A stretch of DNA of 64,000 nucleotides from assembly GCF_964204865.1 (NCBI RefSeq), contig NC_135261.1, forward strand, positions 620,001 through 684,000, given 5' to 3'. Shown piece by piece: positions 1-6,000 of the stretch (the first letter of the stretch is position 1; every line of letters begins with the position of its first letter). This stretch comes from Styela clava (Eukaryota). A program made the position numbers.

Positions 1-3000
1 AGACATTCATTTTGACGTATCTTGAGATTTGCGATATCGACTATTTTTTACACCCTCGACCCACTGACCTGACAGAGGAAGACATTTTTCATATTTTAGC
101 TAGCATACAAAAAAAAAGTTAAAAGCCTGACCCACTGCCCTGCACCCTCTCAACCTCCCTCCCGGTTTCCTATCCTCAAACCACCACCCTATCTCCCTCC
201 CGTTTCCCTATCCCCGACCGCATACCTATCTCCCTCAGTCCTCCTGTCTTCGACCCACTGTTCTAACTCCCTTGCCTTCCTATCCTAGACACTATAACCT
301 GTCTTCCTTCCCTCGACGCTAGCCACATCACGCTGACCTCCCCTGACCCTTACGCTATCGACTCAATTTTACGCACGTCCTGATCGTCATATTCAACCCT
401 CCTTGTTTCCGAATACCTGCCAGGCTTTATACAGATCAAGCATGCCAATGATATTATTGAAGAATACGTCGAAGACAGGTTGACAGTTAATGCAGGCTTA
501 TATGCCTGGAATCTCAAATCGTGATTGCCATAATTGGTAGCTCAGAAATGGGCAACTTTATCCAATCTCAACTTTGCGTAATCTCGAGTATTTCTTATCG
601 CTTCTCGGCCTTTTGGCTAAGATCAAGTGTAGTATCAGTAGTAGGTCGTATGCTAGCTAGACCTGAGTATCGATCTTCGGCTCTTCGGCTAAGATCAAGC
701 CTTAGGAACAAGTTATAGTTGGAATTACAAGATAGTCTAAATACCTTTGGATATTATGGCCTACGCAAAAGTCGCCGCTATACCCCCAGTAATGACCACA
801 CCAAGTAATAACAGACCGCGATCTCTGATGATCGAGACGGATGACAACATAAATTTTGAAGGACTGCTTGGAGTTTTAAAAACAACACCCGATGTCAACC
901 AGTACTACAATGAAATAAAAGGATTATTTGAAGTGAGAAGAGGTCTCTGGACAATATCCTTTAAACCTACATCAAACGAAACGTCTAGTTGCAGGGATGA
1001 GTTCCTAAGCGCAACCGGTGGCAAGTTGAATTCAATGTATGGGCCTATCCACTTCATGCTACCCGCAGGTACACCGACAAGAATTTCAATCAAAGGCATA
1101 CCCGATGAAACACCGTTTGCGAGGGCCGCGGCAATCATAAACAATCTAGAATGCGGCAAAATTAAAAACGCAATGAAAAACTGGCACAAAGGCACGGAAA
1201 TATATAACGGTTATACCGCTTTTTTCATCACAGACTTTAACAAGGATAAACTACCGGACTATATCATATTCGATGGAATAAGATGCAAAACGTATCTCCC
1301 GCAAGAGTTATACACTCCGACATGCGGCAGGTGTTTACAACAGGGCCATACATTCGTCGCATGTCAGAATACACCGGTATGTAGATACTGCAAAGAGGAA
1401 GGACACCTCGTAAAACAATGCAAAAAACGTATCGACCGACACAATCAGGAAGAACCAACCGCTTGGAACATATCTAAAAGAACCGCTAATACTAACAACA
1501 AAACAGGGATAAATACAAACCGTCACAACGTACCACAACTTAATGCAGGCATGTGCCTTTCGCCGCTATCCTCAACATTGCTAAGAGAAGAGGCAAACAC
1601 AAACAGCAAACCACAAACCGAAGAGGAGAGCACACAAGCAATAAGCGATAACGAAACCTCCTCAAACTGCGAAAACGATGACTTAAACGACGAAACAAAA
1701 GATTGGTCTCTGAGCAGAGACGACTCCCAGTTAGAGAAACCGTTGGACATACCGAGAACACCTAGAAGAAAGTTAAAACCAACTTCAACAATCGGACAGA
1801 CCCCCATAGTACATGAAATGACAAGACAATCGTACGTAAAAGGAATGGTTAGAGGATACGAATCCATCGACTCTTCCTCGTTTTCTGATACGTGGATTAA
1901 TAACTCGGCCCCCGCTCATTTGGGAAACAGTGACTACAATCCAATTGGACAAGCCAGTAGCCAAGAGGATTGATAGAATTTATAACTCCCGCGAAATCGA
2001 CCCCTTAATTACATACGTAGGACATGCCGTGAACACCGTAGCCGATCACGCTCTATGCCCATATATTAAACTCAGAGTTTTGAAAAATATAAGATGGGGT
2101 CGGGGGATGTGGCGGAACAGTATCTCTCTATACAAAGAAAAAGATTACTTGGAAATTATAAAAAATACATATAATAGGGCCTTGATAAACATTGAAAGTT
2201 TCGAATCTTTACTAGATTGGTGGGACAACTTTAAACTAAACACCAAAAAACAAACTATAGCATACTCAATAAAAAAAGCAAAAGAAGACAATATAACTGA
2301 ACAATTAATAAGACAAAACATTGCGAATACAGTGGCCAACAAGAATAGTACAGACGTAAGAAAACTGGAAAGACTTAGGGTACAGTTAAAAAACTTGATT
2401 GACAACAAAGCCAATTATAAAACAATCCTGGCGGGCATAGAAGATCAAGAAGAAGGAGAAGAACCAACGAAGTACTTCTATGATGGGATCAAAACACGCG
2501 CAAAACAAACATCGATGGATTCTATCCAAAATTTAAACGGGAAGACAGTTACAAGTGAAAACGAAGTAACTAAGGCGGTAGAGGATTTCTATAACGAGCT
2601 ATGGGGCATGAAGTGTAAAATAGACGAATCTCACCAGCACCACTATATCAATCAAATGAGCGCCACACAACTCAGCCAAGATCAAAACGAAGAGATAGAA
2701 AAACCCACAAACGAGGACGAGATATTTTCTATTATAAAAGATATGAAAAATAATAAATCCCCCGGCCTTGATGGGCTAAACAAAGAATCCTATACAACAT
2801 TTTGGCACATGATAAAAGGAAAATTGACGAATATGATTAATATTATCCTGAGCTTCGGCGCTCTACCGCAAAGCTCACACTATGCCAGAGTGAAATTGAT
2901 ATTTAAAAAGGGAAACAAAAATCTACTAAAAAATTGGCGACCGATCTCGAATCTCAACTTTGACTACAAACTGGTTGCAAGGCTTTTAACCAAAAGACTA

Positions 3001-6000
3001 GAATCTCCACTCAACACATTGGTAAGCCAACAGCAAAAGAGTACCTTACCTGGACGAAGTATATTTGATGCCCATTACAACCTAGAAGCGGTTGTCCGCT
3101 ACTGTCAAACCAAGCAAATTCCAGGATATTTAGTAATGATCGACAACTTGAAAGCGTTCGACAGAATAGACCATAACTTCCTATTTAAAGTATTACACGA
3201 AATCGGCCTCAGCCCCAAAATAACCAATATCGTCAAAAACATGTACGAAGAAATTTACAAGTACATAGATATTAACGGTAAAATGAGCTCCCCAATCAAA
3301 ATCAATAGGGGAATTCGACAAGGATGCCCATTGAGCATGTTGTTATACATTCTAAACGCAGAACCACCAATTAGATCAGTACAACGAAATTCCGACATAC
3401 ATGGCATCAAACTTGGAAAATTCACACATAAACTGGACCAATTTGCCGATGACGCCACCTACGCAGTGAGAGATATAACTTCCATTCAACAAATCTTCTT
3501 TGAATTACAAAAATACGAAAAAGCAGCAGGACAAAAAATTAATATAGATAAAACCCAGATATTGAGTCTCACAACTGACGCAGCACAACGTCTCCGGAAA
3601 TCCAACTATAATACCCACCGTAAAGATACATCAAAAATCTTGGGGATATATTATGGATTAGGGCGGGAAACAATAACATGGGACGAAACACTTGTCAAAA
3701 TAACCAGAAAATTAAACTTTTTAAAAACACGAAAACTCACCTGGATTGGAAAACTAACAGTAATAAATTCCCTGATCATGTCACTAATAATATATCACGC
3801 GAGATTTGTAGAAATACCGCCAGTATATCTCAACAAGGTACAACACCTAGTTGCTAAATACCTATGGTTCCCCGAGGGAATGGAGGCGATAAAGAGAACC
3901 ACGCTACAACGCCCATGGTTAGAAGGCGGCATAAATATGCCCAATATCAAAATTAAAATTTCAGCATGTATAGCAGAGCGAATAAAAATACTAAGCAATA
4001 TCGATACACCTTACCTTTTTTGGCATCAGGAAGCAGTCTATGCTTTAGGATCCAAAATCATAAAAAACAACCCAAGCTTATATACAAATTCTACCCCACA
4101 TCTCCCCTTCGTCCCCAAAATCTGGCAAAAATATTTGGATACAACAAAGGGAATACATCTTACCAAACAACAGTGGGCTGGCATGAAGCACAAAGACATA
4201 TACAGAAATCTCCTGTACAACCTAAAAACTGAGTCTCCATACCCAACGGGAATAGATTGGACTTGCGTTCACGTAAAGCAAAGAACTCTGAAACATAAAA
4301 CAACAAACAAAGAGAAGATATGTTCGTACAGAATAGTGGCTGATGGGTACATCTTTGGGAATAAAGCGCGGAAAAGATCTATGTTTAGCGATGCGCACGG
4401 CCAAAGAAAACTGCTAAAATGCAAATTCTGTGGAAGCCGTGAAGACAATACCCTACACATTTTCTTACACTGCTCTTACATTTCACGACACCTTTCCAAA
4501 ACCACGGGCATATTGAACAGGACCCTTAAAATACCAGTACAAATATCTAAAGAAAATATCTTCTACAACTCTTACACCATGCCCAACCAGACAGTTCAGA
4601 CCATAAAACTATTTTTAATATTCAAATTAGCAATAATCAACTTCAAAATCAAGTTAGATATAGAAAATAGAACAGTCGATCCGAGCGAGGACAAAATTAT
4701 CCCCAAAACAACTCGAAAATGGTCCGATTTTATCAACCAACTTGACAAAAAATTTCCCAAGGTATACACATCCAATTTGAAACCTAATTGGAAAGAAATA
4801 CTTGCTGGGTACGAACAACAAAATAACTAGAAAACCAGATCCTAACAACAATAAATGTAATGAACCTTTTATCTATGCCACCCACAAATGGTAGCATACT
4901 CCTGAGAATACCATCAAACAACCCAACGGAAGTGATGAGTGGATGTCATCTGACCGCCGCATATGCGGCAATGTGATTGCGAGGATTAATACCGATACGA
5001 CTCGGGTATGACGTGTTATTATATGTAACACTGATCCGAGGCAGACCATACATACTCTGATCCGAAAAAAAAAAAAAAGTGCGTAAGATTTAAGTGAGTC
5101 GAGTGCGGAAAAGTCAGGGAAGGTCAGCAATATGAGGCTAGCGTCGAGAAAAGGGAGACGGCCCATAGTGCCGAGGATAGGGAGTTAAGGCAGTGGGTCG
5201 AGGATATGGGGAGCTGAGAGAGATAGGGTGTGGGGTCGAGAATAGGGAACCGGAAGGAAGATAGGGTAGTGGTTCGCTGTTTAATTAAGGTAAGCTGTCT
5301 CGCGCTCTTACCTGAACAGCAGACAGCTTAAGTCGTTTTGGGCGTCGAAACCCCGCTCCAATCCGTCTAGTTTGGGGGAGGCCCTCCCGCTTTATCGCTC
5401 TGGGACTCTCTATAAAAGTTTATAAGGCAGAAAAGATTGTATAAAAAGAGGCAGTAGACCAGGTCAGGAAGATTTTCTTACTCGGATTAACTTGAATATA
5501 CGGATACCATAAAGGATGGATTACGCCACTGCAGCCGCGGCGAATGGAGCAACTGATACTACTACGACAACGAGAACAACCAGACCCCAAACTCTTTTTT
5601 TAAAACAGAACAAAATTTAAATTTCCCAACACTCATGAACATTTTCAGGAATGATGATTCAATAATGAAATACCGTAAACAAATTAAAGGGCTATTTGAA
5701 AGCCCAAAAGGATCCTGGATACTGACATTTGCGGCCTTGGACAACCCAAACGAAAGCTGTCGTGAGAACTTCTCACGAGCAACGAATGGACAAATTCAAA
5801 CGGCGAACATATCAATATCGGTGTCATTACCAAGTGAACCCCCTACTCGTATTTCAGTGAGAGGGATACCTGGTGAAACAACCTATGCAATAGCAGCCGC
5901 GGCCATAAACCGGCTAGGTTGCGGGAAAGTAATAAATGCGACAAGGAATTGGTACCGTGGGACAGATGTGTACAATGGTTACACATCATTCCTGATCGAT

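What the first reader, a model, noticed from the sequence alone, without database searches (positions are those of the whole stretch)
597..5276. Asymmetric junctions: U2 at the 5' end but a non-U2 repeat at the 3' end
Seen: element 1 begins right after U2 nt 40, but its poly(A) is followed by GTGCGTAAGATTT of the G-rich repeat, not by the U2 remainder, and there is no clear TSD. Known: Keno (Tx1 clade) and Utopia elements insert at about this U2 position, and snRNA-LINE chimeras also arise by template switching. Inference, three options: (a) a U2 head carried with the element from U2-promoter transcription and re-inserted elsewhere; (b) recombination between copies at two different targets; (c) a lineage switching targets. 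TGCGTAATCTCGAGT just upstream of U2 (575-589) resembles the repeat start TGCGTAAAATTGAGT and could be a decayed TSD.
Basis: partly seen in the sequence, partly recalled or inferred. Interest (0 to 1): 0.7.

Follow-up and report, generated by a model that had tools for sequence, protein, structure and literature searches.

The report
U2-headed LINE beside a repeat target
A jumping gene of the LINE type carries the first 40 bases of U2 spliceosomal RNA at its front but sits, like its neighbour, at one fixed spot of an unrelated G-rich repeat, which fits a known habit of this kind of element and is not a new kind of system.

Summary
U2 nt 1-40 is exact at 597-636, a LINE follows, and its 14-base A run (5065-5078) abuts GTGCGTAAGATTT of a G-rich repeat. 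No other U2 piece lies in the window, and there is no convincing target-site duplication.

Three findings change the picture:
1. A second, decayed U2 head (669-699, 25/31) lies inside the 5' UTR, so this lineage has picked up U2 heads more than once.
2. A third LINE, only 46% identical in ORF2, ends at the same base of another G-rich copy. That is 2 of 2 preserved 3' ends, so the repeat start is a true target.
3. A third repeat copy lies inverted upstream, with no LINE at its start.

Element 1 has open ORFs but lacks nearly all of its endonuclease domain.

Best reading (0.62): the U2 head belongs to the inserted unit and the repeat is the target. This matches the crocodilian Tx1-Mar families, Keno relatives with U1 or U2 heads that insert in a Mariner transposon.

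Rivals: a resident U2 gene remnant, template jumping, a tandem-LINE reading, misassembly.

Interest is modest: a new member of a known kind.

The parts
123..376 (-). G-rich repeat copy G2, read on the minus strand. Its GTGCGT start is at 376, with no LINE next to it. Internal period is about 38 nt.
   Evidence: blastn 74-75% to the two other copies; inverted repeats I1-I3; TRF period 38 at 155-236; alignment
377..596 (.). 220-nt stretch between G2 and the U2 head, unique in the window. It could be the old upstream flank of G1, a U2 promoter, or a carried 5' extension.
   Evidence: no second copy in the window; no Rfam U2 match in 500-596 at E<=10
597..636 (+). Outer U2 head: U2 snRNA nt 1-40, exact.
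637..5078 (+). Element 1, an L1/Tx1-type LINE, as bounded by the end of the U2 homology and the end of the A run. Both ORFs are open. One large internal deletion has removed nearly all of the endonuclease domain.
669..699 (+). Inner, decayed U2 head inside the 5' UTR: 25/31 to U2 nt 1-31.
   Evidence: family D10; 0 of 4248 tiles reach its score
756..1973 (+). ORF1 of element 1, from the first ATG. It carries CCHC zinc knuckles.
1930..4830 (+). ORF2 of element 1: reverse transcriptase plus a C-terminal Cys/His motif. Only the tail of the APE endonuclease is left.
   Evidence: RVT_1 1.3e-29; weak zf-RVT; PDB L1 ORF2p 2.9e-54, query 14-682 on chain 204-884; 27-33 of the first 240 residues of three relatives covered
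5065..5078 (+). A run (14 A) at the 3' end of element 1.
5079..5276 (+). G-rich repeat copy G1, opening with GTGCGTAAGATTT. It is cut short at its far end, where element 2 begins.
5277..10318 (+). Element 2, a related LINE (32-52% aa to element 1) and heavily decayed. ORF1 has 1 stop. ORF2 has 5-6 frame switches and 7-11 stops, and part of the APE is missing. The 3' end is not preserved.
10319..13899 (+). Element 3, a related LINE (46% aa to element 1 in ORF2). It is 5'-truncated within ORF1, its APE is complete, ORF2 has 2 stops, and the C-terminal third of ORF2 is missing. A short A run is followed by the same repeat start.
13900..14135 (+). G-rich repeat copy G0, first piece, opening with GTGCGTGAGATTT.
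14136..24500 (.). Neighbour: nested LTR retrotransposons that split G0. The LTRs are 14136-14373 and 24261-24500, with a 5-bp duplication GGTTC on either side.
24501..24601 (+). G-rich repeat copy G0, second piece. It ends at the same ...GGGTCAGGCTT as G2.

Best explanation
**What it is.** Element 1 belongs to a small lineage of APE-type, L1/Tx1-like LINEs, together with elements 2 and 3. Their present insertion site is the first base of a 200-330-bp G-rich, 38-nt-periodic repeat.

**How it inserts.** Insertion is by target-primed reverse transcription. The endonuclease nicks the bottom strand just before GTGCGT. The A tail is copied from that nick, so the 3' junction is precise. The 5' junction is made later and is imprecise, with loss of upstream DNA.

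**The U2 head.** The 40-nt U2 head is part of the inserted unit, not the rest of a disrupted U2 gene at this place. It was most likely taken up when a parent copy sat in a U2 gene at the Keno/Utopia position (nt 39/40) and was transcribed from the U2 start site. The lineage therefore uses, or recently used, both targets. An older head acquired the same way survives further in.

**State of element 1.** It has lost its endonuclease domain and could only have been copied with proteins from a sister element.

**Shown versus inferred.** Shown: the anatomy, the two heads, the shared 3' junction and the missing APE. Inferred: the order of events, the nick position, and whether the head came by read-through or by template jump.
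For: 1. **Shared 3' junction.** 2 of 2 LINE 3' ends preserved in the window abut the same GTGCGT of two repeat copies that are only 79% alike. The two elements share 46% of residues in ORF2. A shared junction in such diverged elements and targets points to site-specific insertion.
2. **Array order fits repeated use of the site.** Element 3 lies between the older element 2 and G0. Element 2 has 5-6 frame switches and 7-11 stops, element 3 has 2 stops, and element 2 has lost its 3' end. The recognised sequence therefore probably lies downstream of the nick.
3. **Inner U2 head.** 669-699 matches 25/31, and 0 of 4248 tiles reach its score. The lineage carried U2 5' sequence inside its own RNA before the outer head arrived.
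4. **No U2 remainder anywhere in the window**.
5. **Where the outer head ends.** It stops at nt 40, the position where Keno and Utopia insert; their 3' flank starts at nt 39 (PMC4640811 section 6).
6. **Published precedent.** PMC4494074 (sections 16 and 17) describes Keno-related Tx1-Mar families with U1- or U2-derived heads, inserted at preferred places of Mariner-N4_AMi, with repeated 5' additions of heads.
7. **APE-type lineage.** Exo_endo_phos matches the start of element 3's ORF2. 228-240 of the first 240 residues of three APE-bearing relatives are covered in element 3. The best solved relative is L1 ORF2p.
Against: - Only one copy of the element-1 family is in the window, so its true 5' end is unknown. 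It could be 637, 597 or even 377.
- The sample is three elements at one locus. Two shared junctions could also come from a local duplication of 'tail plus repeat' that then diverged, although the two LINEs are far too different for a recent one.
- The outer head is perfect (40/40) and sits 220 nt from the next repeat, which is also what a real U2 gene start would look like.
- Whether 377-596 is a U2 promoter could not be tested.
- No target-site duplication supports the insertion as one clean event.
- Element 2 shows no snRNA head.
- No resemblance between the U2 site and the repeat start explains a double specificity. The best local alignment of the head to the G1 start is reached by 25 of 500 shuffles, and Rfam sees no U2 there.
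- Clade placement next to Keno was not testable.
Confidence: 0.62

Rival explanations
1. **Resident U2 gene remnant.** 377-636 is the promoter and first 40 nt of a real U2 gene that lay upstream of G1. Either element 1 entered it Keno-fashion and the U2 remainder was later lost, by deletion or by recombination with a sister copy at a G-rich repeat. Or element 1 was primed at G1 and its 5' end was joined to the nearby U2 gene through homology with its own U2 head, deleting what lay between.
For: - The head is 40/40 and ends at the Keno/Utopia position.
- 5' junctions of site-specific LINEs are variable and often come with deletions (PMC4640811 section 6).
- The element's own inner head would give homology for such a join.
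Against: - It needs a U2 gene to lie by chance just upstream of a G-rich repeat, plus an extra deletion or recombination event.
- No U2 3' part is left anywhere in the window.
- 377-596 is unique in the window and gives no snRNA-related signal.
- Element 3 shows that the repeat alone is a sufficient target.
Confidence: 0.2
2. **Template jump at this very insertion.** Reverse transcriptase reached the 5' end of the LINE RNA, switched to a U2 snRNA molecule and copied it from nt 40 to nt 1. The head would then be neither inherited nor a sign of residence in U2 genes. This is a sub-variant of the best explanation, since the head is still part of the insert.
For: - snRNA-LINE chimeras made by template switch are known (Buzdin 2002 and Garcia-Perez 2007, seen only as cited in PMC4494074 section 19).
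- The two heads end at different U2 positions (31 and 40), as in SINEU 5' extensions, whose ends differ by up to 22 nt.
- GTAGTA occurs both at the end of the head (629-634) and at the start of the body (638-643).
Against: - The head ends at the one position where U2-specific LINEs insert. A free jump would hit that position rarely.
- No TSD brackets the chimera.
Confidence: 0.15
3. **The G-rich repeat is the long 5' UTR of the LINE downstream, not a target.** It would be comparable to monomer arrays at LINE 5' ends. The A-run/GTGCGT joints would then be head-to-tail LINE-LINE joints.
For: G1 is followed directly by element 2, whose ORF1 begins 238 nt further on.
Against: - Only 1 of 3 repeat copies is followed by LINE sequence.
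- G0 and G2 share a further stretch and a common end (...GGGTCAGGCTT) that element 2 lacks, and the sequences after the three copies are unrelated.
Confidence: 0.06
4. **Assembly artefact.** Repeats at 123-376, 5079-5276 and 13900-14135 could have caused a wrong join, so that the 5' and 3' sides of element 1 come from different loci.
For: The region is dense in repeats.
Against: - The repeat copies are only 74-79% alike and the three LINEs differ strongly, which gives little scope for mis-joining.
- The window holds no N.
Confidence: 0.04

Closest known systems
Tx1-Mar families of crocodilians, e.g. Tx1-11_Crp with a U2 head and Tx1-2_Crp with a U1 head (Kojima 2015, PMC4494074; sections 11, 16, 17 and 20 read)
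   Same: - APE-type LINE related to Keno.
- snRNA-derived sequence at the very 5' end.
- Heads added more than once.
- Insertion at preferred places of a non-snRNA repeat.
- Weak or absent TSDs.
   Different: - The target here is a G-rich 38-nt-periodic repeat, not a Mariner transposon.
- The head here is pristine (40/40) and ends at the Keno site, and the copy has open ORFs, so the event looks young. The crocodilian families are 85-87% identical to their consensus.
- The host is unknown.
- Clade placement was not tested.
Keno, the U2 snRNA gene-specific Tx1-clade LINE (Kojima and Fujiwara 2004, seen only as cited in PMC4494074 and PMC4640811)
   Same: APE-type endonuclease in the lineage, and U2 5' part up to about nt 40 on the 5' side.
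   Different: The 3' flank is not U2 in 0 of 2 testable elements, so the defining 3' junction is not met.
Utopia (PMC4640811; section 6 and passages read)
   Same: The same U2 position is involved. Arrays of different families sit at one target, 3' junctions are precise and 5' junctions are variable.
   Different: Utopia has a restriction-like endonuclease after the RT and a single ORF. Here there is an ORF1 with zinc knuckles and an N-terminal APE in element 3.
snRNA-L1 chimeric retrocopies made by template switching (Buzdin 2002 and Garcia-Perez 2007, seen only as cited in PMC4494074)
   Same: The snRNA 5' end is fused in front of LINE sequence.
   Different: Those are usually dead one-off copies flanked by TSDs. 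Here a whole element with both ORFs follows, an older head lies inside it, and there is no TSD.
Tx1 of Xenopus in Tx1D (seen only as cited in the introduction of PMC4494074)
   Same: A Tx1-type LINE inserted at a fixed place of another repeated element.
   Different: The target repeat here is of unknown nature, with no transposon ends recognised, and there is a U2 head.

Membership tests
Keno (U2-specific Tx1-clade LINE) | ORF2 with N-terminal APE endonuclease and reverse transcriptase | tested here: met
   Met for the lineage. RVT_1 is found in all three elements. Exo_endo_phos matches the start of element 3's ORF2 (E 0.0023, below the Pfam cut-off). 228-240 of the first 240 residues of three APE-bearing relatives are covered in element 3. 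Element 1 itself keeps only 27-33 of those 240.
Keno (U2-specific Tx1-clade LINE) | 3' flank is U2 from about nt 39 | tested here: not met
   0 of 2 preserved 3' ends. Both abut GTGCGT of the G-rich repeat, and no other U2 piece is in the window.
Keno (U2-specific Tx1-clade LINE) | 5' flank is the U2 5' part | tested here: inconclusive
   U2 nt 1-40 precedes element 1. Whether it is flank or part of the insert cannot be told from one copy. Element 2 has no U2 on its 5' side, and element 3 is 5'-truncated.
Keno (U2-specific Tx1-clade LINE) | RT groups with Keno inside the Tx1 clade | not testable with these tools
   No named Tx1 or Keno reference came back. The 120 best protein hits listed carry no element names. 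The best solved relative is human L1 ORF2p. The Atlas gives only generic RT clusters.
Tx1-Mar-like (Keno relatives with snRNA heads and a non-snRNA target) | snRNA-derived sequence at the 5' end of the element | tested here: met
   Outer head 597-636 (40/40) and inner head 669-699 (25/31).
Tx1-Mar-like (Keno relatives with snRNA heads and a non-snRNA target) | Repeated 5' addition of heads | tested here: met
   Two nested heads, the inner one the more decayed.
Tx1-Mar-like (Keno relatives with snRNA heads and a non-snRNA target) | Preferred insertion place in a non-snRNA repeat | tested here: met
   2 of 2 preserved 3' ends at the same base of the repeat. The sample is very small and comes from one locus.
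Tx1-Mar-like (Keno relatives with snRNA heads and a non-snRNA target) | Phylogenetic position beside Keno | not testable with these tools
   As above, no named references.
Utopia (NeSL-like, U2-specific) | Restriction-like endonuclease C-terminal to the RT, and no APE | tested here: not met
   APE is present in element 3. The C-terminal part of element 1's ORF2 gives only a weak zf-RVT match. R2-type solved proteins match the RT core only.
snRNA-LINE chimeric retrocopy (template switch) | snRNA starting at nt 1 fused to LINE sequence, the whole flanked by a TSD | tested here: inconclusive
   The fusion from nt 1 is present. No TSD longer than 7 nt was found, and 141 of 5000 shuffles do as well.

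The most novel reading that the evidence does not exclude
A site-specific LINE lineage caught between two targets. Master copies would still sit in U2 genes and be read from the U2 start site, which is the source of the pristine 40-nt head. Their offspring would land at the start of a G-rich repeat.

A bolder form is not excluded by one copy. The inserted unit would begin at 377, exactly between the two inverted repeat starts, and so carry 220 nt of U2 upstream sequence. That would make it a LINE that has taken an snRNA promoter along.
Probability: 0.25. Interest if true: 0.6.

Novelty: new member of a known kind. Interest (0 to 1): 0.35.

Why it matters
How site-specific retrotransposons change targets is known mostly from comparing old, decayed families.

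Here a young-looking copy has open ORFs and a perfect U2 head that ends at the classic U2 insertion position. It sits in a different repeat, next to older relatives at the same site.

If genome-wide counts bear this out, the locus would be a fresh record of two things. One is a target shift. The other is how snRNA heads become attached to LINEs, and through them to the SINEs they move.

It also explains the puzzling asymmetry without calling on anything new.

Tried and rejected
1. **Is the 5' flank or the repeat start itself a decayed U2?**
   - By eye, 560-596 and the first 21 nt of G1 can be lined up with U2.
   - Local alignments are at chance level. Flank against head: 786 of 2000 shuffles reach the score. 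Head against the G1 start: 25 of 500. Against the G0 and G2 starts: 265 and 498 of 500.
   - Rfam finds no U2 in 500-596 or 5079-5180 even at E<=10. Rejected.
It is weak. I keep it only as a possible 7-bp duplication followed by 15 unexplained bases.
3. **Common sequence after the three repeat copies**, which would have made the repeat longer or part of element 2. None was found.
4. **Another snRNA head on element 2.** None at E<=5.
5. **More copies of the LINEs in the window for further junctions.** There are only three.
6. **Relatives with flanks in genome contigs.** 81 pattern matches, none a relative. That collection holds bacteria and archaea only.
7. **Clade or host from the protein search and the Atlas.** The hits are unnamed, the best is 51% identical over 62% of the query, and the Atlas clusters are generic RT, mostly chordate where known.
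8. **A promoter test of 377-596.** No tool or comparator was on hand.

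
Full report
**Observation**

- U2 snRNA nt 1-40 lies at 597-636 without a mismatch. It is the only such match in the window, with none expected by chance.
- Rfam calls U2 at 597-704 (48.1 bits, gathering score 46). Its alignment shows that only the first 40-43 model positions are really matched.
- A LINE follows. Its A run is 5065-5078 (14 A), and GTGCGTAAGATTT follows at 5079.
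- No other U2 fragment is in the window, at E<=5 for 1-16000 and E<=1 for 16001-64000.
- No target-site duplication is visible. The longest shared words between the 5' side and the 3' flank are 6 and 7 nt, and 141 of 5000 shuffles do as well.
- The window holds no N. Nothing in it made me take it for human.

**Anatomy of 1-24600**

From left to right the region reads as follows.
- **G2.** A copy of the G-rich repeat on the minus strand at 123-376, with its GTGCGT start at 376.
- **A 220-nt stretch**, 377-596, unique in the window.
- **The U2 head.**
- **Element 1**, 637-5078.
- **G1**, 5079-5276.
- **Element 2**, 5277 to about 10318.
- **Element 3**, about 10319-13899.
- **G0**, in two pieces (13900-14135 and 24501-24601). 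It is split by nested LTR retrotransposons at 14136-24500, whose insertion is marked by 238-240-bp LTRs and a 5-bp duplication GGTTC.

The repeat copies are 74-79% alike and have an internal period of 38-39 nt. G2 and G0 share the same far end, and G1 stops earlier, where element 2 begins. The sequences beyond the three copies are unrelated. The repeat is therefore a bounded unit of 200-330 bp. Its wider nature (satellite block, or part of a transposon) is unknown.

**The three LINEs**

tblastn with element 1's proteins finds just these three copies. They are distinct families. ORF2 of element 1 is 46% identical to element 3 and 32-52% identical to the pieces of element 2.

All three have an ORF1 with a CCHC zinc knuckle (E-values at or just under the Pfam cut-off) and an RT. 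Relatives in the protein collection carry Exo_endo_phos, RVT_1 and often zf-RVT. The best solved relative is human L1 ORF2p (2.9e-54), and R2-type proteins match the RT core only. The lineage is thus APE-type, of the L1/Tx1 group. A finer placement could not be made, because no named Tx1 or Keno reference came back from any search.

| Element | Stops | Frame switches | Missing parts |
|---|---|---|---|
| 1 | 0 | 0 | One large internal deletion. Only 27-33 of the first 240 residues of three APE-bearing relatives are matched, so the endonuclease is all but gone. |
| 2 | 1 in ORF1, 7-11 in ORF2 | 5-6 in ORF2 | Part of the APE, and the 3' end. |
| 3 | 2 in ORF2 | 0 | 5'-truncated within ORF1. C-terminal third of ORF2 missing. 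APE complete. |

**The 3' junction is shared**

Element 3 ends in a 9-base A run, a C, and then GTGCGTGAGATTT, the same first base of the repeat as after element 1. Both preserved 3' ends in the window (2 of 2) therefore abut the same position. They belong to LINEs that share under half of their residues, and they abut repeat copies that are 79% alike. The last 82 nt of the two 3' UTRs are still 71% alike.

This is the signature of site-specific insertion, not of a duplication of one joint.

Element 3 lies between the older element 2 and G0, and element 2 lacks its own tail. That arrangement is what repeated use of one site produces when the recognised sequence lies downstream of the nick. G2 has no LINE at its start and may show an empty site.

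**The U2 heads**

Besides the perfect outer head, the 5' UTR holds a second copy of U2 nt 1-31 at 669-699 (25/31). None of 4248 control tiles reaches its score; the best scores 13 against 19. The lineage therefore already carried U2 5' sequence in its RNA when the outer head was added. U2 at the 5' side is consequently no proof that this copy sits in a U2 gene.

The outer head stops at nt 40. Utopia's 3' flank starts at nt 39 and is identical to Keno's (PMC4640811, section 6). A head ending there is what read-through from the U2 start site of a Keno-style insertion would give, and a free template jump would hit that position only rarely.

**Most likely history (inferred)**

1. Ancestors lived in U2 genes and were transcribed with the first 40 nt of U2.
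2. The head became part of the element.
3. The lineage came to use the start of the G-rich repeat.
4. Element 2 entered at G0, and its 5' joint removed the far end of G1.
5. Element 3 entered at the same place.
6. Element 1, or its parent, lost the endonuclease domain and entered at G1 with help in trans.

The 5' joint of element 1 remains undefined.

**Rivals**

- **A resident U2 gene start at 377-636.** This needs a U2 gene to lie by chance next to the repeat, plus an extra event. It cannot be excluded, because the 220 nt could not be compared with real U2 upstream regions (0.20).
- **A template jump to U2 snRNA at this very insertion** (0.15). This is a sub-variant in which the head is still part of the insert.
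- **The repeat as 5' UTR of the downstream LINE.** This fits only 1 of 3 repeat copies (0.06).
- **Misassembly** (0.04).

**Comparison with what is known**

The closest described case is Tx1-Mar of crocodilians. These are Keno-related Tx1 families inserted at preferred places of Mariner-N4_AMi. Some carry U1- or U2-derived heads, and the SINEs they move show repeated 5' additions of such heads. The mechanisms discussed are template jump or 5' transduction (PMC4494074; abstract, passages and sections 11, 16, 17 and 20 read).
- As a Keno member, this element fails the defining 3' junction.
- As Utopia, it fails on the endonuclease type.
- It works like Tx1-Mar, but membership by phylogeny is untested.

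My literature searches brought up only these two papers as bearing on U2-headed or U2-targeting LINEs. Other listed papers were seen as search listings only.

**What stayed unchecked**

- No eukaryotic genome collection was on hand.
- Genome contigs (bacteria and archaea) gave nothing.
They were a comparison of 400-596 with upstream regions of intact U2 genes and a table of the flanks of all family copies.
- The host organism is unknown.
- Supplements of the two papers were not opened.

**Verdict**

The asymmetry is real. Most likely it is the normal look of a U2-headed, Keno-like LINE that inserts into another repeat. That makes it a new member of a known kind and of modest interest. It would be of higher interest only if genome-wide data show a lineage working on two targets at once.

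Noticed in passing
window 5276/5277 and 14131-14136: G1 ends, against the 5' end of element 2, one base from the position where the LTR retrotransposon entered G0. Two unrelated insertions thus sit at nearly the same place of the repeat. By my own rough estimate, made with no call, a uniform choice of place would give this about 1-3% of the time.
   Followed up: partly
window 629-634 and 638-643: GTAGTA occurs at the end of the U2 head and again at the first bases of element 1. It is a short, duplication-like feature at the head-to-body joint.
   Followed up: no
window 376/377 and 5078/5079: The stretch 377-5078 lies exactly between the two inverted starts of G2 and G1 (…ACGCAC | … | GTGCGT…). 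With it removed, the two repeats would meet head to head as a perfect palindrome.
   Followed up: partly
window 5030-5064 and 13850-13889: The 3' UTR ends of elements 1 and 3 each hold two copies of a C(T/C)GATCCG word just before the A run. It may be a conserved 3' recognition feature.
   Followed up: no
window 14136-24500: Nested LTR retrotransposons of the Ty3 type. Protease, RT/RNase H and integrase lie on the minus strand and are interrupted by a second set (RT, RNase H, integrase) on the plus strand at about 15750-20870. The outer LTRs are 14136-14373 and 24261-24500, with TSD GGTTC.
   Followed up: partly
window 37887-42305: A satellite of a 28-nt unit with about 161 copies at 69% matches. 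It is strongly strand-asymmetric, with GC skew about -0.8.
   Followed up: no
window 32559-33527, minus strand: Two similar open stretches (120 and 165 aa) that by eye look like Cys-rich sushi/CCP-type exons, next to an 81-nt tandem repeat at 33034-33187. This may be a duplicated exon of a host gene. It was not scanned against Pfam.
   Followed up: no
window 53437-53476 and 60947-60986: The same 14-nt tandem array (TTATTATCGTCGTG, 2.9 copies, 96% matches) occurs twice, 7.5 kb apart. This suggests a long direct repeat or two copies of one element.
   Followed up: no
window 35572-35926: A tandem repeat of a 47-nt unit, 7.5 copies, also seen with periods 95 and 142.
   Followed up: no
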